Of a stretch of 6,192 bases of DNA, positions 1 to 6,192 are shown piece by piece (within the stretch, counting starts at the first letter, position 1; the number at the start of each line of letters is the position of its first letter). The notes under the pieces were generated by a model. That model was not told where the DNA came from. It did not search any database and was given only the letters and a program-made list of their open reading frames with translations. A program made the position numbers and the translations under genes. The DNA comes from a virus. Lineage: Duplodnaviria > Heunggongvirae > Uroviricota > Caudoviricetes. The stretch is from IMG/VR virus record IMGVR_UViG_2563366944_000009, one strand, 5' to 3'.

Positions 1-66
1 TCAAAATCGGTGGAGCTGCATGACAAAGTCATCGGGCATTATCTGAACATAAAACACTATCAATAA
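1..66 (+). CDS. insB: IS1 transposase InsB, C-terminal fragment (5' end outside the window)
   Basis: In-frame translation of 1-63 gives SKSVELHDKVIGHYLNIKHYQ followed by TAA at 64-66, which is the recalled C-terminus of IS1 InsB. Confidence 0.8.
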   Translation, partial: SKSVELHDKVIGHYLNIKHYQ

Positions 67-81
67 GTTGGAGTCATTACC
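1..81 (+). mobile_element. Right-hand end of an IS1 insertion sequence (the element continues left of the window), ending in its terminal inverted repeat at about 59-81
   Basis: Bases 1-81 match the recalled 3' end of IS1, finishing ...CACTATCAATAAGTTGGAGTCATTACC, the complement of the GGTAATGACTCCAACTTATTGAT terminal repeat. The putative 9-bp target duplication would be 82-90 (ttatttgag) but cannot be verified without the other end. Confidence 0.85.
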
Positions 82-203: not shown

Positions 204-234
204 CGCCCGCTTTGCGGGGCGGTTTTAATGCAGT
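196..234 (+). terminator. Candidate intrinsic terminator (GC-rich imperfect hairpin plus TTTT) overlapping cos
   Basis: cccgc-tttg-gcggg stem followed by gcgg and TTTT. Oriented for transcripts entering from the left across cos. Confidence 0.3.
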
Positions 235-304
235 TGTACTGACACGCTCAGACCGCGCCGGGAATGGCACGGTTTACAGAAAATGAGGCAGGAAAACGCA
301 TGCA

Positions 305-337
305 AAGCCATGCACCTTATCGATGCATGGCTTTTTT
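305..337 (+). terminator. Candidate rho-independent terminator
   Basis: 10-bp perfect stem aagccatgca (305-314) / tgcatggctt (324-333) with a 9-nt loop, then a T-run at 332-337. The stem is palindromic so it also folds on the minus strand, where the U-tract is poorer. Confidence 0.5.
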
Positions 338-366
338 CAGTAAAACGGGCGGATTTTCGGGGAGTT

Positions 367-939
367 TTACACAGACTGACGTGATGCCAGTTGCGCACTT
401 TTACGCGAAAAAATCATGTTCTGCGCAGGGGTGAATTTTTCACGGCTGTCATCCACCGAAGCCGCGTCAGGCCTGAATCCGATGGTCGTTAAAATGTCGC
501 TATCCTGTGCGGAATAATTAATTTTTTCCCCCTTCGCAAGCCAGGACAGGAGGGCTTCACGCAGGGCATCTGTGGCACGCTGTATGGCACAGTTTCGGGC
601 AATGGCCGTCAGCTCACTGTAGCCCATCAGCTCCGGTGCCAGTGCGGCCGCCAGTGCTGTGCCGTGCTGCTGCATAAAATCATTCAGCCGGTCGCGGATG
701 CTGATGTGCTGAACGGCTTCATGCGAACGAATATAACGACCGGCAGCCTGATTCACCTGCCATTTTCTGACTTCGATAATATTGCGTAATTCGTCCAGGC
801 GACTGACGTTTCTGCCTTCTCCTGACAGAAGCCGCAGATATTCCTGTTCGGCCGCAGCCAGCTCATTTTTGCGTTGCAGCCATGCTGCTTTGTTATTCTG
901 ACAGGTGTCAAAGGCCTGCTGTAAGGCTGTGCTTTCCAT
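367..939 (-). CDS. psu: Psu-like polarity suppression protein (capsid decoration / Rho antagonist of P4-type satellites), 190 aa
   Basis: Last gene of a minus-strand three-gene operon ending next to cos. The 190-aa length and position match P4 Psu. ATG at 939-937, TAA at 369-367. Confidence 0.75.
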   Translation of the reverse strand: MESTALQQAFDTCQNNKAAWLQRKNELAAAEQEYLRLLSGEGRNVSRLDELRNIIEVRKWQVNQAAGRYIRSHEAVQHISIRDRLNDFMQQHGTALAAALAPELMGYSELTAIARNCAIQRATDALREALLSWLAKGEKINYSAQDSDILTTIGFRPDAASVDDSREKFTPAQNMIFSRKSAQLASRQSV

Positions 940-1012
940 CGTTATCTCTTTCTCATCATGCTGAAGAATAAAAATACGGTGTGCGGCGACGGCCGGGGTT
1001 AACCGGCAGCCC

Positions 1013-1513
1013 TCATTCCAGACGCAGCGAATATGATTGTGTTTTTAACCGTACTGGCGGCAGTTCCTGTTTTTCATGCAGGCTTTCTGCCAGTTCGTCC
1101 GGCGTGACCGGGCGGACAATGAAGCGGTTGATGGTCTGAAGCGTTTTAAACACCAGACCACAGCCCGGCTCCGTGCACACATAAAAACGTTCGGTGACTT
1201 CCTGAGACAGACGCCGCGATGTTCTTGACAGTGCAAGGCCTTTACATCTCCGACAACAATATCCGGTAACAAGCATTCTTTTCGGGCGTTTCATACTGCC
1301 GGAGGCAGAAGTCAGTGAATCGCGGTATCTCTGTTTGCCTGAAATGTATTCCATTCCTGAATCTTTACAGTCAGAGAAAAAGCTTTCACTCGCTTCAAAT
1401 GTCGCAGAGCAATAAATATTCCGGCACTGTGCAATCATTATCTTGGTGCCATCGTCCATGAAATGTGCGCGACGGGTGTGAGCAACATGTCCACACGACG
1501 GGCAGTAAATCAT
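1013..1513 (-). CDS. delta: Delta-like late-gene transcriptional activator, a tandem duplication of the Ogr-type zinc finger, 166 aa
   Basis: Two C-X2-C-X22-C-X4-C motifs in the translation (CPSC...22...CRNIYC and CRRC...22...CTEPGC). Length 166 aa as in P4 Delta. The ATG at 1513-1511 overlaps the sid TGA (ATGA overlap). Confidence 0.85.
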   Translation of the reverse strand: MIYCPSCGHVAHTRRAHFMDDGTKIMIAQCRNIYCSATFEASESFFSDCKDSGMEYISGKQRYRDSLTSASGSMKRPKRMLVTGYCCRRCKGLALSRTSRRLSQEVTERFYVCTEPGCGLVFKTLQTINRFIVRPVTPDELAESLHEKQELPPVRLKTQSYSLRLE

Positions 1514-2244
1514 GACAGCAGTCCTCTGGCCTTAAGCTCTGCTCCCTGCTGGTCTATTTTGTCCTGCCACACCTTGCGCTGTGCCGGTGTGCCTGCCACC
1601 TCATAATCCATGTGCGGGAGTGTTGCCGCTGACAGTCCGGTCAGCCGGAGAACCGGCTCACCGCTGAGGCTGATTTGCATCTGTTTTATTTTCTGTTCCA
1701 GCGATGATTTCACCTGCTGCATGACAGCCTTTTCCGGTGCGATGTAGCCCTGATGGCCGGTGGTGTTGGCGAGCGGATTTTCCTGTACCAGGATGCTCAG
1801 ATGCATTGCCCGGACAAGCGCCTCACAGGTTTCATTCAGGGCGTGTTCCAGCTCATGCTCTGCATACAGACTCAGAAGGTGATGATGTGCCTTCCGGTAG
1901 GCGGTGGCCGTGCTGTCACACGCCCCTTTCAGGCGTTCGCGTTCAAAATTCAGCACCACGGCCAGATTGTCATATTCCTGTACCAGCTCCCGGCGTGCCA
2001 CGCGCTCAATGTGGCGCTGTTTCAGCTCATCGCTCAGGACACCACCGGCTGCACGAAAGGCCGTGCGCCAGTCGTCAGCGTCGTTTCCGTCGGCCTGCGC
2101 CAGCGCATTTTTTTCCTGCTCTGCCCGTTCAATGGCCGTGACGGTCTCATCCATCAGGCGGGCGTTCTCAAGATGGGCGGCTCTGGCCTTTTCCAGTTGT
2201 GCCAGCGCGGGTTGCAGATATTCAGGGATGGTGTTGTCAGACAT
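1510..2244 (-). CDS. sid: Sid-like capsid size-determination (external scaffold) protein, 244 aa from the preferred ATG
   Basis: First gene of the late operon, with a long predicted helical, charged sequence. The ATG at 2244-2242 has GAGG 9 nt upstream and gives 244 aa, the P4 Sid length. The track's GTG at 2262 has no Shine-Dalgarno sequence. Confidence 0.7.
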   Translation of the reverse strand: MSDNTIPEYLQPALAQLEKARAAHLENARLMDETVTAIERAEQEKNALAQADGNDADDWRTAFRAAGGVLSDELKQRHIERVARRELVQEYDNLAVVLNFERERLKGACDSTATAYRKAHHHLLSLYAEHELEHALNETCEALVRAMHLSILVQENPLANTTGHQGYIAPEKAVMQQVKSSLEQKIKQMQISLSGEPVLRLTGLSAATLPHMDYEVAGTPAQRKVWQDKIDQQGAELKARGLLS

Positions 2245-2316
2245 TTTCCGGTTCCTCGTCACTTCAGGTTAAGAAAATTGTGACGTACACCGGACAACAA
2301 CACGACGCATTGCAGA

Positions 2317-2334
2317 TGTGCCAGCCCTGACACA
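2317..2334. promoter_or_regulatory. TGT-N12-ACA dyad, candidate Delta/Ogr activator site of the leftward late promoter (Psid-like)
   Basis: TGTgccagccctgacACA read directly. Its centre lies about 80 bp upstream of the sid start codon, consistent with an activator site near -55 of a late promoter. Confidence 0.5.
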
Positions 2335-2414
2335 GGAGACTCATCCTCAGACCGGCAAGCCAGGAAAAGGTCGCAGGAAAAACCGGCTTACTGTTTGTTT
2401 TTTTTATATTTTAC

Positions 2415-2518
2415 TGTTCACCTCTGTTCACAATAAGAAAAAAGATAAGTAATACAGTAAGTTAAAGGGTGAACAATCGCAGTAATGACTGTTCACCGTC
2501 TGTTCACCACTGTTCACC
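2415..2518. repeat. Iteron array, six copies of TGTTCAC(C/A): candidate ori-type binding sites for the alpha replication protein
   Basis: Copies at 2415-2422, 2425-2432, 2468-2475 (inverted), 2490-2497, 2501-2508 and 2511-2518; the last three are spaced 10-11 bp apart. P4 ori and crr are known to carry TGTTCACC octamers bound by alpha. An AT-rich tract follows at about 2520-2620. Confidence 0.65.
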
Positions 2519-2676
2519 CGTTGATGGGCTTTTTGTGCTGTTTATTACTTTTTATTTTTATTAATTCACTGAAATAAATAAGAAAAAACAATTTGTATTT
2601 CACTATAATTTTTTCCAGCTCCTTCCAGAGCGTTTTAAAGCTATCTGGCGCTGATGTACAAAAAATGCACAGCCAT

Positions 2677-2694
2677 TGTAAGGCTGCCGGAACA
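2677..2694. promoter_or_regulatory. TGT-N12-ACA dyad, candidate Delta/Ogr site of the rightward late promoter (PLL-like) upstream of vis
   Basis: TGTaaggctgccggaACA read directly, centred about 110 bp upstream of the vis ATG. Confidence 0.45.
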
Positions 2695-2796
2695 AATCCC
2701 CCCTGTTGCGTCTGCCGAAAATATTCACAAAATAAAGCGCTACCCGAAGCCGGACGGACTTATCCGGTGCTGTATGGACATTAACGAGGTAGCCCG

Positions 2797-3063
2797 ATGC
2801 AAGCTGTTTTTTCTTCCCCGTCTCCCGCCCCTGTGACGCCACTGATGCCGCTGCCGGACATCACACAGGAGCGTTTTTTACGTCTTCCGGAAGTGATGCA
2901 CCTGTGCGGCCTGTCACGCTCGACCATCTACGAACTCATCCGTAAGGGGGAATTTCCGCCGCAGGTGAGTCTTGGCGGTAAAAATGTGGCCTGGCTGCAC
3001 TCTGAAGTCACCGCATGGATGGCCGGCCGCATTGCCGGACGCAAACGGGGGTACGACGCATGA
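2797..3063 (+). CDS. vis: AlpA/Vis-family small DNA-binding regulator and excision factor, 88 aa
   Basis: The translation contains the AlpA-type helix-turn-helix core ([50 protein letters not shown]). GAGG lies 7 nt before the ATG. The 88-aa length and first position after the divergent late promoter match P4 Vis. Confidence 0.85.
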
Positions 3064-3157
3064 TGATGCCTGTTCTGCAAAAAGTCCCTTTTTCTGGCTT
3101 GCCTTTTTCCGGCATTTGCGGATATAGTTTTTCCGCTGTCGCAAAATCGGCAGCCGG

Positions 3158-3183
3158 GCGTGGAAACCCGAGCAATCTAACGG
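3158..3183 (+). promoter_or_regulatory. Upstream copy of a candidate antisense-RNA target site (GCGTGGAAAC ... ATCTAACGG)
   Basis: Direct repeat of the element at 3410-3450. Both are approximately complementary to 3364-3385. Confidence 0.35.
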
Positions 3184-3191
3184 CGACATAT

Positions 3192-3213
3192 GACGCGCCA
3201 TGCGTCTTTTTTT
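3192..3213 (+). terminator. Weak hairpin plus T7 run, a possible attenuator just after the upstream target site
   Basis: gacgc-gccat-gcgtc followed by TTTTTTT at 3207-3213. The stem is only 5 bp. Confidence 0.25.
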
Positions 3214-3329
3214 GTGTCGCAATCAACGCCACAGAGCGCCAGATTATGGTGTGGTGTGTGGTCAGTCGAGCAGATGGAACTCCGTGCATCCTGCCCGCGT
3301 CCGCTCATTATGCCGCAGAGTCAATGGTA

Positions 3330-3400
3330 GCTCAGGCGGGGCAGCCTCCGGGCTGGCCGGTATCCGTTAGAGCCGGTATTTCCACCCCCGTCTGGGCTAT
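3330..3400 (+). ncRNA. Candidate c4/CI-type antisense immunity RNA; boundaries are approximate
   Basis: The core CCGTTAGA...TTTCCAC (3364-3385) is near-complementary to GTGGAAAC...ATCTAACGG, found both upstream (3158-3183) and overlapping the icd ribosome-binding site (3410-3450). This mirrors the P1 c4 and P4 CI arrangement. No protein-coding signal spans this 400-bp gap. Confidence 0.3.
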
Positions 3401-3409
3401 CGCCATCGA

Positions 3410-3450
3410 GCGTGGAAACTCCGGCGATAGCGTAACCTGCTATCTAACGG
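3410..3450 (+). promoter_or_regulatory. Downstream target-site copy overlapping the Shine-Dalgarno sequence of the Icd-like gene, lying in the loop and 3' arm of a 9-bp hairpin
   Basis: GCGTGGAAAC at 3410-3419 and ATCTAACGG at 3442-3450, running into GGAGG at 3449-3453. A stem gctatcgcc / ggcgatagc flanks the first motif. Confidence 0.4.
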
Positions 3451-3461
3451 AGGCTGCCATC

Positions 3462-3659
3462 ATGGCTACAACCCTTACCCCTTCACACCCTGAATTTGTC
3501 TTTGTGTTTGCGGCTGTCCGTCGCGCAGACCGTCATCCCCGTATCTGCATGCTTCGCACCGTCGCCGGTGATGAACGCAGTGCCCGCCGTTCCCTTGTCC
3601 GTGACTATGTGCTCTCCCTTGCTGCCCGTCTGCCGGTGGTGGAGGTGTCCCGTGCGTAA
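3462..3659 (+). CDS. Icd-like host cell-division inhibitor family protein, 65 aa
   Basis: GGAGG lies 8 nt upstream of the ATG. The translation [65 protein letters not shown] fits my recollection of the short Icd-like proteins found in P4-like prophages. The 214-aa track ORF 3015..3659 is an upstream extension through non-coding DNA. Confidence 0.7.
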
Positions 3660-3939
3660 TAAAAAAGCCCCTCAGACCGTCTCAGCGCGTCATGACGCCC
3701 GTGAACACCTCAGCATTGAGGCTTACCATAAGCTCAACCGCGCCAGCGCCGTATCCCAGTTTGTTGGGGGTGATTTGATTCACCGTGAACTCTCCGGCCT
3801 GCATCAGCTCTACATTCCGCATATTTTCAGCTACCTGAATGAAGATATTGATTTTGTGCTGAATGAGCTGAAAGCCAAAGGCCTGTGCCGCGATTTTCTC
3901 GCCCAGCAGAAAGACCGGGGAGACAAGACGCATGTTTGA
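3652..3939 (+). CDS. Small hypothetical protein, 95 aa, in the position and of about the size of the P4 epsilon anti-repressor; start is uncertain
   Basis: GTG at 3652 with GGAGG 6 nt upstream, overlapping the icd stop. The frame is open back to 3496, but that would overlap icd by 160 nt. No recognisable motif. Confidence 0.5.
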
Positions 3940-4387
3940 TTTTCCCCAGCCCGGTGAGATTTACCGTTCTGCCGGTTTTCCCGATGTGGCCGTGGTCGGC
4001 ATTCTGGAAGACGGTATTCCGTGGGAAATGCCGTACCGCTGCCCGGACATTGTCTGGAACCCGTACCGCCGTAAATTCAGTATCCTTGTGCGTATCCTCG
4101 CTGACGGGCGCACCACAGACATCCCGCTGGGGCGTTTTCTGCGGGAATTTACCTGTGACCGTCCTGACCTGTTTAAACGCAGCCCCGTAAACCGGCATGC
4201 GGTACTGAAAGAAATGGCCGGAGACCCGGAATTACAGAAATGGCGGGAGAAATATCTGGATATTTACCCGCAGGCCCCTGTTCCGGTCAGCCGGGCGGCA
4301 CCGGTGGCGCGGGAATGGCGGGAAATTCCCCGCACGGAGCCTGACCCGGAAATCACCCCGGATAACAGTTACCGCAATTATCTGTAA
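3932..4387 (+). CDS. Hypothetical protein, 151 aa (same length as P4 orf151)
   Basis: Its ATG overlaps the preceding stop (ATGTTTGA), suggesting translational coupling. Codon usage is consistent with its neighbours. Function unknown. Confidence 0.6.
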   Translation: MFDFPQPGEIYRSAGFPDVAVVGILEDGIPWEMPYRCPDIVWNPYRRKFSILVRILADGRTTDIPLGRFLREFTCDRPDLFKRSPVNRHAVLKEMAGDPELQKWREKYLDIYPQAPVPVSRAAPVAREWREIPRTEPDPEITPDNSYRNYL

Positions 4388-4460
4388 TTAAAAAACGACA
4401 CCCGAAAAATTAAATGTGCGTATTCGCGCAGGGATACGCACGTCTTCAGGAGACGCAGAT

Positions 4461-4526
4461 ATGCCTTATCAGTTAATGCAACCGGCACGGAATGCAGTCA
4501 TCTGTCACAGGGAGGAAAACAAATGA
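4461..4526 (+). CDS. Possible 21-codon upstream ORF ([21 protein letters not shown]) coupled to the next gene
   Basis: AGGAG lies 8 nt before the ATG at 4461, and the TGA at 4524-4526 overlaps the ATG at 4523 (ATGA). Too short to assert as a gene. Confidence 0.25.
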
Positions 4527-4843
4527 AAACACCCTTACCGCCCGTCTTACGTGCTGCCCTTTACCGTCGCGCTGTCGCCTGTGCCTGGCTGACCGTGTGC
4601 GAACGTCAGCACCGCTACCCGCATCTCACCCTTGAGTCACTGGAGGCGGCCATCGCCGCTGAGCTGGAAGGCTTTTATCTGCGCCAGCACGGTGAGGAAA
4701 AAGGGCGTCAGATAGCCTGTGCCCTGCTGGAAGATTTAATGGAATCCGGCCCCCTGAAGGCCGCGCCGTCGCTGTCCTTTCTCGGGCTGGTTGTGATGGA
4801 TGAACTCTGTGCCCGTCACATAAAAGCGCCGGTACTGCACTGA
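4523..4843 (+). CDS. Hypothetical protein, 106 aa, immediately upstream of the primase
   Basis: GGGAGG lies 8 nt before the ATG. The stop TGA overlaps the primase ribosome-binding site AAGGAG. Function unknown. Confidence 0.6.
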
Positions 4844-4857
4844 AGGAGAACAACACC

Positions 4858-6192
4858 ATGAAAATGAACGTAACCGCCACCGTCAGCCATGCGCTCGGCC
4901 ACTGGCCGCGTATTCTCCCGGCGCTGGGGATTCAGGTGCTGAAAAACCGTCATCAGCCCTGTCCGGTCTGTGGCGGGAGTGACCGCTTCCGTTTTGATGA
5001 CAGGGAGGGGCGCGGCACCTGGTACTGCAATCAGTGTGGTGCCGGTGACGGCCTGAAACTGGTTGGAAAGGTGTTTGGTGTCTCTCCGTCCGACGCGGCC
5101 GCAAAGGTGGCTGCCGTGACCGGCAGCCTGCCCCCGGCTGACCCGGCAGTGACGGCCGCCGCCGTTGCTGAAACAGACGCTGCCCGGAAGAACGCCGCCG
5201 CACTGGCACAAACCCTGATGGCAAAAACCCGTCCCGGAACCGGTAACGCCTACCTGACCCGCAAGGGCTTTCCCGGCCGGGAATGCCGGATGCTGACCGG
5301 CACACACAGAGCCGGTGGCGTGAGCTGGCGCGCCGGTGACCTTGTGGTGCCACTGTATGACGACAGCGGCGAACTGGTTAACCTTCAGTTAATCAGTGCT
5401 GACGGCCGTAAGCGCACCCTGAAAGGCGGACAGGTCAGGGGCACCTGTCACACCCTTGAAGGACAGAATCAGGCCGGAAAACGTCTGTGGATAGCGGAGG
5501 GATACGCGACCGCACTTACCGTGCATCACCTGACCGGTGAAACGGTGATGGTGGCGCTTTCTTCCGTGAACCTCCTTTCTCTGGCCAGCCTTGCCCGGCA
5601 GAAGCATCCGGCCTGTCAGATTGTCCTTGCCGCAGACCGTGACCTCAGCGGTGACGGCCAGAAAAAAGCCGCCGCAGCCGCAGATGCGTGTGAGGGCGTT
5701 GTTGCCCTGCCGCCGGTCTTCGGTGACTGGAATGATGCCTTCACGCAGTACGGCGGGGAGGCCACCCGTAAGGCCATTTACGATGCCATCCGGCCACCGG
5801 CTGAAAGCCCGTTCGACACCATGAGCGAAGCAGAGTTTTCCGCCATGAGTACCAGCGAAAAGGCCATGCGTATCTATGAGCATTACGGCGAGGCGCTCGC
5901 GGTCGATGCCAACGGCCAGCTTCTGTCCCGCTATGAAAATGGTGTCTGGAAGGTGCTGCCGCCACAGGACTTTGCCCGGGATGTGGCCGGGCTGTTTCAG
6001 CGTCTGCGCGCGCCGTTCTCCTCCGGGAAGGTGGCCTCCGTGGTGGACACCCTGAAACTGATTATTCCGCAGCAGGAAGCCCCCTCCCGCCGCCTGATTG
6101 GCTTTCGTAACGGCGTGCTCGACACGCAGAACGGCACGTTCCATCCGCACAGTCCGTCACACTGGATGCGCACCCTGTGCGATGTGGATTTC
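4858..6192 (+). CDS. alpha: P4 alpha-type primase/helicase replication protein, N-terminal 445 codons (3' end beyond the window)
   Basis: AAGGAG lies 9 nt before the ATG. I translated the frame by hand to the window edge and found no stop. It has an N-terminal zinc ribbon (CPVCGGSDRFRFDDREGRGTWYCNQCG) and a Toprim-type motif (RLWIAEGYATALT ... VLAADRDLSGDG). Absent from the track only because it has no in-window stop. Confidence 0.9.
   Translation, partial: MKMNVTATVSHALGHWPRILPALGIQVLKNRHQPCPVCGGSDRFRFDDREGRGTWYCNQCGAGDGLKLVGKVFGVSPSDAAAKVAAVTGSLPPADPAVTAAAVAETDAARKNAAALAQTLMAKTRPGTGNAYLTRKGFPGRECRMLTGTHRAGGVSWRAGDLVVPLYDDSGELVNLQLISADGRKRTLKGGQVRGTCHTLEGQNQAGKRLWIAEGYATALTVHHLTGETVMVALSSVNLLSLASLARQKHPACQIVLAADRDLSGDGQKKAAAAADACEGVVALPPVFGDWNDAFTQYGGEATRKAIYDAIRPPAESPFDTMSEAEFSAMSTSEKAMRIYEHYGEALAVDANGQLLSRYENGVWKVLPPQDFARDVAGLFQRLRAPFSSGKVASVVDTLKLIIPQQEAPSRRLIGFRNGVLDTQNGTFHPHSPSHWMRTLCDVDF

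What the first reader, a model, noticed from the sequence alone, without database searches (positions are those of the whole stretch)
3652..4843. Three small early ORFs of unknown function between the Icd-like gene and the primase
The 95-, 151- and 106-aa ORFs are tightly packed with overlapping stops and starts and good ribosome-binding sites, and none has a motif I recognise. This early-operon slot in P4 holds epsilon, which derepresses the helper prophage, and accessory ORFs. Small proteins here are the natural candidates for helper manipulation or counter-defence. That is an inference from position only.
Basis: inference. Interest (0 to 1): 0.5.

Follow-up and report, generated by a model that had tools for sequence, protein, structure and literature searches.

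The report
P4 satellite genes epsilon, orf151, cnr
These three small genes are the long-known epsilon, orf151 and cnr genes of a phage-P4 satellite prophage of E. coli; two already have established jobs (waking the helper prophage, and limiting the satellite's own DNA copy number), so only the middle gene is still of unknown function.

Summary
The three ORFs are real and lie exactly where stated: 3652-3939 (95 aa), 3932-4387 (151 aa) and 4523-4843 (106 aa). They are not unknown. The window is a natural variant of satellite phage P4, 97.5-98.5% identical in DNA and colinear from psu to alpha. The 95-aa ORF is P4 epsilon itself (93/95 residues; Pfam "Derepression", E 8e-51), the antirepressor that binds the helper P2 C repressor. 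The 106-aa ORF is identical to P4 ORF106 (DUF5375). From my memory of the P4 literature this is cnr, the negative regulator of alpha-dependent replication; its position and distribution here agree. The 151-aa ORF is P4 ORF151 (148/151), which is still uncharacterised. It is a real gene (dN/dS 0.17-0.30, syntenic in at least 8 genera). It forms an orphan family confined to epsilon-bearing P4-like satellites. The model shows a generic SH3-like barrel and a disordered tail. Nothing links any of the three proteins to counter-defence. Side observations: a strongly conserved 40-nt block after orf151; a 21-codon remnant of a gene that P4 has lost; and a Pfam marker mix-up (Phage_ASH is not epsilon). 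Verdict: already known, low interest.

The parts
3652..3939 (+). epsilon (E protein): antirepressor that derepresses a P2-type helper prophage. 95 aa, GTG start.
   Evidence: 93/95 aa identical to P4 epsilon (the window has Q36 and K92 where P4 has R). Annotated 'epsilon gene product' or 'helper derepression protein' in X51522 and NC_001609. Pfam PF25738 'Derepression', 170 bits against a cut-off of 27. dN/dS 0.12-0.32. Mechanism from PMC2995052.
3932..4387 (+). orf151: conserved P4 gene of unknown function, translationally coupled to epsilon through an 8-nt overlap.
   Evidence: 148/151 identical to P4 ORF151. phrog_10748, E 8e-101, 'unknown function'. No Pfam, NCBIfam or PADLOC match. Family confined to Enterobacterales. 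dN/dS 0.17-0.30. AF2 pLDDT 63.5: residues 1-108 ordered as an SH3-like barrel plus helices, residues 110-151 disordered.
4415..4454 (+). Conserved non-coding block (TGTGCGTATTCGCGCAGGGATACGCACGTCTTCAGGAGAC). It contains a possible 12-bp hairpin (4414-4443) and the Shine-Dalgarno sequence of the next ORF.
   Evidence: 32-38 of 40 nt identical in 8 divergent loci whose flanking genes have dS of about 1. In all 96 IMG/VR loci fetched with this motif it lies about 30 nt after an orf151 homologue. Hairpin pairing is kept in 92% of cells, but there is no covariation beyond the shuffles. No Rfam family matches.
4461..4526 (+). 21-codon mini-ORF ([21 protein letters not shown]). Its stop overlaps the cnr ATG (ATGA). 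It looks like the remnant of a 74-86 aa gene present at this position in other P4-like satellites.
   Evidence: Coordinates. Other loci carry a phrog_10110 ORF in the same slot, with the same upstream block and the same ATGA junction with cnr. PMC8628076 reports a 75-aa family between epsilon and alpha that is absent from P4.
4523..4843 (+). ORF106 = cnr: negative regulator of alpha-dependent P4 replication (copy-number control). 106 aa.
   Evidence: 106/106 identical to P4 ORF106, with one synonymous nucleotide change. Pfam DUF5375, 211 bits against a cut-off of 30. Always immediately upstream of the primase gene, also in lineages without epsilon or orf151. dN/dS 0.07-0.17. cnr lies between epsilon and alpha, and its family is in 90% of P4-like elements (PMC8628076). 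The assignment of the name cnr to ORF106 is from my own knowledge.
3463..3659 (+). Context: Icd-like ORF (65 aa from the ATG at 3463; longer 'ORF137/cI' frame from 3243) just upstream of epsilon.
   Evidence: NCBIfam NF033153 phage_ICD_like, E 1.4e-20. Corresponds to the P4 'cI gene product (AA 1-137)' annotation.
3320..3407 (+). Context: CI immunity RNA gene (C4 antisense RNA family), which controls read-through into the operon.
   Evidence: Rfam RF01695, 76.2 bits against a gathering score of 45.
3135..3212 (+). Context: isrK-family leader RNA with its terminator-like hairpin. It lies downstream of a promoter-like site at 3099-3128, which is probably PLE.
   Evidence: Rfam RF01394, 72.5 bits against a gathering score of 50. 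Promoter-like and terminator-like sites.
4859..6192 (+). Context: 5' part of alpha (primase-helicase-origin binding protein), the target of Cnr. It runs off the window.
   Evidence: P4 annotation 'alpha gene product / DNA primase'. tblastn synteny.

Best explanation
The segment is the epsilon-orf151-cnr part of the early (left, PLE/PLL-driven) operon of a natural P4 satellite prophage of E. coli.

1. **Epsilon (3652-3939).** It encodes the E antirepressor. The protein does not bind DNA. It binds the helper P2 immunity repressor C in a multi-subunit complex that cannot bind the operator. This derepresses the P2 prophage and gives P4 access to helper late functions. This is shown for P4 and inferred here from 98% identity.

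2. **cnr (4523-4843).** Cnr acts on the alpha initiator protein encoded immediately downstream. It holds down P4 replication and plasmid copy number. This is established for P4 according to the literature as I remember it, and the protein here is identical.

3. **orf151 (3932-4387).** It is a real gene, translationally coupled to epsilon. It has no assigned function. My best guess is a protein-protein adaptor acting on a helper or host factor during the early phase. This is inference only.

Expression of all three depends on read-through past the CI-RNA-controlled termination region upstream.
For: **The window is P4.**
- 98.5% identity over 3400-5000 to X51522 and NC_001609.
- 97.5% over window 204-6192.
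- Colinear psu, delta, sid, orf88, cI-region, epsilon, ORF151, ORF106 and alpha.

**The proteins match P4's.**
- Identities are 93/95, 148/151 and 106/106.
- Pfam PF25738 'Derepression', E 8e-51; DUF5375, E 3e-63.
- RefSeq calls the same genes 'derepression protein', 'hypothetical protein' and 'DUF5375 domain-containing protein'.

**They are coding genes.** dN/dS is 0.07-0.32 and synteny holds in Kluyvera, Scandinavium, Serratia, Citrobacter, Buttiauxella, Cedecea and others.

**Epsilon mechanism.**
- PMC2995052: E binds C, has no DNA binding of its own, and the P2 sos mutation T67I abolishes the interaction.
- PMC7552001.
- PMC12239096: inducible epsilon expression activates a P2 prophage.

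**cnr.**
- PMC8628076 places cnr between epsilon and alpha, in a family found in 90% of P4-like elements.
- P4 has only ORF151 and ORF106 in that interval.
- ORF106/DUF5375 is the more widespread of the two. It is found in 1426 against 1001 of 5426 E. coli genomes and in 311 against 96 IMG/VR loci.
- It is kept next to the primase in lineages that lack orf151.

**Operon regulation.** Rfam finds the C4/CI RNA and the isrK leader upstream.
Against: - I could not retrieve the primary cnr papers. UniProt and Pfam still label the protein 'Uncharacterized protein ORF106' and DUF5375. The equation ORF106 = cnr therefore rests on my own knowledge plus position and distribution.
- The two epsilon substitutions relative to laboratory P4 (R36Q, R92K) have not been tested for function. 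This allele is nevertheless the common natural one, found on at least 1000 contigs.
- Nothing here says what orf151 does. In one locus (L014) orf151 persists although the epsilon slot holds an unrelated 57-aa ORF, so orf151 does not strictly need epsilon.
- No helper prophage is visible in a 6-kb window, so activity in the source strain is unknown.
Confidence: 0.93

Rival explanations
1. One reading: all three are uncharacterised small proteins whose likely role is helper manipulation or counter-defence.
For: The position in the early operon is correct. Epsilon does manipulate the helper. PHROGs and NCBIfam give no function for any of the three.
Against: Two of the three are already characterised P4 genes. 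ORF106/cnr acts on the satellite's own replication, not on the helper. No anti-defence or defence family matches any of them. The known P4 defence hotspot lies elsewhere, between psu and int (PMC8628076).
Confidence: 0.04
2. orf151 encodes an RNA-polymerase-binding Tudor/SH3-like protein of the CarD / UvrD-CTD / Mfd-RID type. It would modulate host or helper transcription in the early phase.
Confidence: 0.07
3. orf151 belongs functionally with cnr and alpha, as a replication or plasmid-maintenance accessory, and not with epsilon.
For: It lies between epsilon and cnr-alpha in one operon. It persists in L014, where epsilon is replaced.
Against: It is translationally coupled to epsilon, not to cnr, through an 8-nt overlap conserved in all loci. 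It co-occurs almost one-to-one with epsilon in E. coli: 993 against 1001 genomes, with the same identity bands. It is absent from lineages that keep cnr-alpha but lack epsilon.
Confidence: 0.12
4. The ORFs, or at least orf151, are chance reading frames and not genes.
For: None found. orf151 has no Pfam family.
Against: Intact frames, conserved length and dN/dS of 0.17-0.30 over dS of about 1 in 8 divergent loci. 29 invariant residues in 24 homologues down to 43% identity.
Confidence: 0.01

Closest known systems
Phage P4 epsilon (E protein; X51522 CAA35901 / NP_042039; Pfam PF25738)
   Same: 93/95 residues, the same GTG start, the same 8-nt overlaps with both neighbours and the same operon position.
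   Different: Two conservative substitutions (R36Q, R92K). Activity was not tested here.
Phage P4 ORF106 = Cnr (CAA35899 / NP_042037; UniProt YQ55_BPP4; Pfam DUF5375)
   Same: Identical protein, with one synonymous nucleotide change, lying 15 nt upstream of alpha.
   Different: Nothing at protein level. Databases have not carried over the name cnr.
Phage P4 ORF151 (CAA35900 / NP_042038; phrog_10748)
   Same: 148/151 residues and the same position.
   Different: Three substitutions in the disordered C-terminal part (D115A, T116P, T141I). Function is unknown in P4 too; no paper in the held library mentions it.
Other protein antirepressors that bind a repressor directly (for example coliphage 186 Tum or P22 Ant; recalled from memory)
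   Same: They work like epsilon: a small protein sequesters the immunity repressor, with no cleavage and no DNA binding.
   Different: I know of no sequence relation, and none was tested here. Epsilon is encoded by a satellite and targets the repressor of a different element, its helper.
phrog_10110: the 74-86 aa gene between orf151 (or the Icd-like gene) and cnr in other P4-like satellites (the '75-aa family' of PMC8628076)
   Same: It occupies the spacer slot. It shares the conserved upstream block and the ATGA junction with cnr.
   Different: In the window and in P4 only a 21-codon remnant is left. It is not detectably related to epsilon (BLASTP E 0.82; hhalign probability 1%).

Membership tests
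P4-like satellite (core set of PMC8628076: psu, delta, sid, alpA, epsilon, alpha, integrase) | Co-localised homologues of the core components in the P4 order | tested here: met
   psu, delta, sid, orf88/alpA, epsilon and alpha are all present and colinear with P4 at 97.5% DNA identity. The integrase lies outside the window.
P4 epsilon / Pfam PF25738 Derepression protein family | Full-length match above Pfam's gathering score | tested here: met
   170.2 bits against 27, covering residues 1-95 of the 95-position profile.
P4 epsilon / Pfam PF25738 Derepression protein family | Orthology to the experimentally studied P4 gene (identity and synteny) | tested here: met
   93/95 identical, between the Icd-like ORF and ORF151.
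P4 epsilon / Pfam PF25738 Derepression protein family | Binds the P2 C repressor and derepresses a P2 prophage | not testable with these tools
   Known for P4 E (PMC2995052). Here it needs a binding or induction assay.
Cnr / Pfam PF17345 DUF5375 | Full-length match above the gathering score and identity to P4 ORF106 | tested here: met
   210.9 bits against 30. 106/106 identical.
Cnr / Pfam PF17345 DUF5375 | Gene immediately upstream of the alpha primase-helicase gene | tested here: met
   15-nt spacer in the window. The same adjacency holds in all 9 divergent loci and in 2 lineages that lack epsilon.
Cnr / Pfam PF17345 DUF5375 | Negative control of alpha-dependent replication through interaction with alpha | not testable with these tools
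   Literature knowledge (Terzano 1994 and Ziegelin 1997, recalled; the papers are not held). PMC8628076 states that cnr controls plasmid copy number.
P4 ORF151 family (phrog_10748) | Full-length match, and a position overlapping the epsilon stop codon | tested here: met
   E 7.7e-101, residues 1-151 of 151. The 8-nt overlap is conserved.
RNAP-interacting Tudor-like domains (CarD, UvrD-CTD, Mfd-RID) | Specific structural match clearly above generic SH3-like barrels | tested here: not met
DUF1653 (PF07866) small phage/bacterial barrel proteins | Sequence or structure match at significant level | tested here: inconclusive
Known anti-phage defence proteins (PADLOC-DB) | Any model match | tested here: not met
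   No match for any of the three proteins at E up to 0.1.

The most novel reading that the evidence does not exclude
orf151 and the 40-nt conserved block just after it (4415-4454) may form an unstudied functional unit of epsilon-bearing P4-like satellites. ORF151 would be a helper- or host-targeting adaptor, with an SH3-like barrel and a disordered tail ending in the conserved motif D-x-x-Y-x-x-Y-L. The block would be a cis-acting RNA or DNA signal that sets expression of the downstream cnr-alpha replication genes.
Probability: 0.25. Interest if true: 0.35.

Novelty: already known. Interest (0 to 1): 0.08.

Why it matters
It matters little as a discovery. The finding re-describes three genes of a phage sequenced in 1990.

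It has practical value for annotation.
- The '95-aa unknown' should be labelled epsilon (antirepressor).
- DUF5375 proteins next to P4-type primases are Cnr-type replication regulators.
- Pfam Phage_ASH (PF10554), which one survey used as the epsilon marker, in fact hits the cI/Icd-region ORF and not epsilon. This can affect counts of which satellites 'have epsilon'.

orf151 remains the one conserved early-operon gene of this model satellite without a function. It is cheap to test genetically.

Tried and rejected
**Remote homology for ORF151.**
- Pfam, NCBIfam and PADLOC gave no match.
- PHROGs gave only its own family, labelled 'unknown function'.
- A profile search of PDB sequences gave only borderline eL21 barrel matches, E 0.05-1.
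- A profile search of 1.84 billion representative proteins returned 30 hits. Nearly all are family members or fragments; the exceptions are weak hits near the E-value limit, such as P0166.

**Structure of Cnr.** A single-sequence AF2 run gave a low-confidence all-helical model (pLDDT 59.7), so I did not use it for a fold search. Profile searches of PDB sequences with epsilon and with Cnr found nothing significant.

**Is the 74-86 aa 'gap' protein a paralogue of epsilon?** I suspected this by eye. BLASTP E 0.82 and hhalign probability 1% do not support it.

**Is the conserved block an RNA hairpin?** It folds. However, covariation is no better than in the shuffles and no Rfam family matches. RNA structure is unproven, and a DNA-level palindromic site is equally possible.

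**Literature.** The primary epsilon and cnr papers are not in the held library. Searches for orf151, orf106 and 'Cnr protein' found nothing on P4.

**Fetching divergent cnr loci.** The IMG/VR scan returned only near-identical copies. I took divergent examples from E. coli genomes instead.

**Tracking helper phages across genomes.** This was not feasible. The search tools return counts and top rows only, not per-genome presence tables.

Full report
**Observation.**
The window contains three + strand ORFs at exactly the stated positions.
- 3652-3939: GTG start, 95 aa.
- 3932-4387: ATG start, 151 aa.
- 4523-4843: ATG start, 106 aa.

Each is preceded by a Shine-Dalgarno-like motif. The first ORF overlaps the upstream Icd-like ORF by 8 nt, and the second overlaps the first by 8 nt. 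The 'tightly packed' description fails at the third junction, where a 135-nt spacer (4388-4522) separates the 151-aa and 106-aa ORFs. A further 15 nt separate the 106-aa ORF from the primase gene.

**What the window is.**
Megablast of 3400-5000 against the phage collection finds only phage P4 (X51522, NC_001609), at 98.5% identity over the whole query. Window 204-6192 aligns with P4 at 97.5%.

The P4 annotation maps colinearly onto the window:
- psu, 367-939 (-)
- delta, 1013-1513 (-)
- sid, 1510-2244 (-)
- orf88/alpA, 2797-3063
- the 'cI/ORF137' frame with its Icd-like end, 3243-3659
- epsilon
- ORF151
- ORF106
- alpha, from 4859

Rfam finds the CI immunity RNA (C4 family, 3320-3407) and the isrK-type leader (3135-3212). 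A promoter-like site at 3099-3128 lies just upstream.

The same DNA is a common chromosomal prophage. 954 of 5426 complete E. coli genomes carry at least 80% of the window, and one genome matches it at 100% next to ssrA.

**Identity of the three proteins.**
- The 95-aa protein differs from P4 epsilon at two positions (R36Q, R92K).
- The 151-aa protein differs from ORF151 at three positions.
- The 106-aa protein is identical to ORF106.
- Pfam places the first in PF25738 'Derepression protein family' (E 8e-51) and the third in DUF5375 (E 3e-63). The second has no Pfam family.
- NCBIfam and PADLOC have nothing for any of them. PHROGs has one 'unknown function' family for each.
- The exact sequences each occur on at least 1000 public contigs. 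Their source names are 'Derepression protein', 'hypothetical/Prophage protein' and 'DUF5375 / Uncharacterized protein ORF106 YQ55_BPP4'.

**Are they genes?**
A scan of one genome per species recovered 9 divergent P4-like loci, in Kluyvera, Scandinavium, Serratia, Citrobacter, Tenebrionibacter, Intestinirhabdus, Buttiauxella, Cedecea and an unnamed enterobacterium.
- All have the order Icd-like, epsilon, orf151, cnr, alpha. The exception is Cedecea, where the epsilon slot holds an unrelated 57-aa ORF.
- Nei-Gojobori dN/dS against the window is 0.12-0.32 for epsilon, 0.17-0.30 for orf151 and 0.07-0.17 for cnr, at dS of about 0.6-2.
All three are under purifying selection.

**How epsilon works.**
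According to PMC2995052, the P4 E protein has no DNA-binding capacity of its own. It binds the P2 C repressor in a multi-subunit complex that cannot bind DNA. This turns the P2 switch to lytic growth. The P2 sos mutation (C T67I) abolishes the interaction. PMC7552001 and PMC12239096 (inducible epsilon used to activate a P2 prophage) agree. With 98% identity, the same mechanism is inferred here.

**How ORF106 works.**
From my own knowledge, ORF106 is cnr (Terzano et al. 1994, J Bacteriol 176:6059). Cnr acts through the alpha protein (Ziegelin et al. 1997, J Bacteriol 179:2817). I could not retrieve either paper. The independent support is as follows.
- PMC8628076 states that cnr controls plasmid copy number and lies between epsilon and alpha, in a family present in 90% of P4-like elements.
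- P4 has only ORF151 and ORF106 in that interval.
- ORF106/DUF5375 is clearly the more widespread of the two. It is in 1426 against 1001 of 5426 E. coli genomes and in 311 against 96 IMG/VR loci.
- It stays next to the primase in a second E. coli lineage that has neither epsilon nor orf151.
- It is also the most conserved protein of the operon, at 70-90% identity where alpha is at 42-55%. That fits a protein which must keep an interface with alpha.

**What can be said about ORF151.**
- *Distribution.* It is an orphan family. There are 104 clusters, all from Enterobacterales, down to 44% identity. A profile search of 1.84 billion representative proteins adds nothing outside the family.
- *Link to epsilon.* It co-occurs with epsilon almost one-to-one in E. 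coli: 993 against 1001 genomes, with the same identity bands. It is translationally coupled to epsilon.
- *Structure.* The AF2 model has pLDDT 63.5 and pTM 0.60. It shows an ordered region, residues 1-108, with four strands and three helices, and a disordered tail, residues 110-151. The last residues of the tail (D144, Y147, L151) are invariant.
- *Best guess.* I rank 'protein-protein adaptor acting with or after epsilon on a helper or host factor' first. This has low confidence.

**Comparison with what is known, and verdict.**
Everything in the finding is a known P4 gene. Novelty: already known. Interest is low. The only open question is the function of orf151, which has stood open since the P4 sequence was published.

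**Side observations.**
- A 40-nt block about 28 nt after the orf151 stop (4415-4454) is 80-95% identical across loci whose coding flanks are saturated at synonymous sites. It accompanies orf151 in all 96 IMG/VR loci that carry the motif. A 12-bp hairpin is possible but is not supported by covariation.
- The spacer holds a 21-codon ORF whose stop overlaps the cnr start. It is the remnant of a 74-86 aa gene (phrog_10110) found in other P4-like satellites. This matches the '75-aa family absent from P4' of PMC8628076.
- Pfam Phage_ASH (PF10554), used as the epsilon marker in that survey, matches the cI/ORF137 frame over the CI RNA gene and not epsilon.

Noticed in passing
window 4415-4454 (possible hairpin 4414-4443): A 40-nt non-coding block just after the orf151 stop is 32-38/40 identical in 8 divergent P4-like loci whose flanking genes have dS of about 1. 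It lies about 30 nt after an orf151 homologue in all 96 IMG/VR loci fetched with the motif. A 12-bp hairpin is possible, but covariation does not exceed the shuffles and no Rfam family matches. It could be an RNA signal or a palindromic DNA site.
   Followed up: partly
window 4461-4526: 21-codon mini-ORF ([21 protein letters not shown]) with its own Shine-Dalgarno sequence. Its stop overlaps the cnr ATG (ATGA). In other P4-like satellites the same slot holds a 74-86 aa gene (phrog_10110) with the same junction. P4 and the window appear to carry an internal-deletion remnant that may still provide translational coupling to cnr.
   Followed up: partly
window 3306-3497 (within the ORF137 frame 3243-3659): Pfam PF10554 'Phage_ASH' matches the cI/ORF137 frame (E 3.8e-19) over the region that encodes the CI RNA (Rfam C4, 3320-3407). 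The true epsilon matches PF25738 and not PF10554. The survey PMC8628076 used PF10554 as its 'epsilon' marker, so its epsilon presence/absence calls may really score the cI/Icd region.
   Followed up: partly
L190 3933-7630 and L191 3939-7641 (E. coli chromosomes): A second common E. coli lineage of P4-like elements has alpA, an Icd-like gene (181-185 aa), a 74-aa phrog_10110 gene, DUF5375/cnr and the primase. It has no epsilon and no orf151. How it derepresses a helper is not evident.
   Followed up: partly
L014 5589-6008 (Cedecea): The epsilon slot holds an unrelated, hydrophobic ORF of about 57 aa. It still ends in ...SHV* and overlaps the orf151 ATG as epsilon does. This looks like a gene replacement that kept the junction.
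   Followed up: no
window 1-81, junction at 82: The first 81 nt are 100% identical to the end of an IS1A copy. In strain AF3 a 1.9-kb stretch containing a NACHT-domain gene lies between that IS1 and the sequence that follows at window 82, in the hotspot next to psu. The window's source therefore seems to lack that cargo gene.
   Followed up: partly
protein P0127 (ORF151 homologue from a Logan assembly): This 151-aa homologue has many R/P/H/T-to-W/C/F/L/I changes, as if the DNA had undergone systematic C-to-T conversion. It is probably a sequencing or assembly artefact, and I left it out of the alignment.
   Followed up: no
window 1510-2262 (-): The mechanical ORF for sid starts at an upstream GTG (250 aa). 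P4 sid is annotated from the ATG six codons downstream (244 aa). The remainder is near-identical.
   Followed up: no
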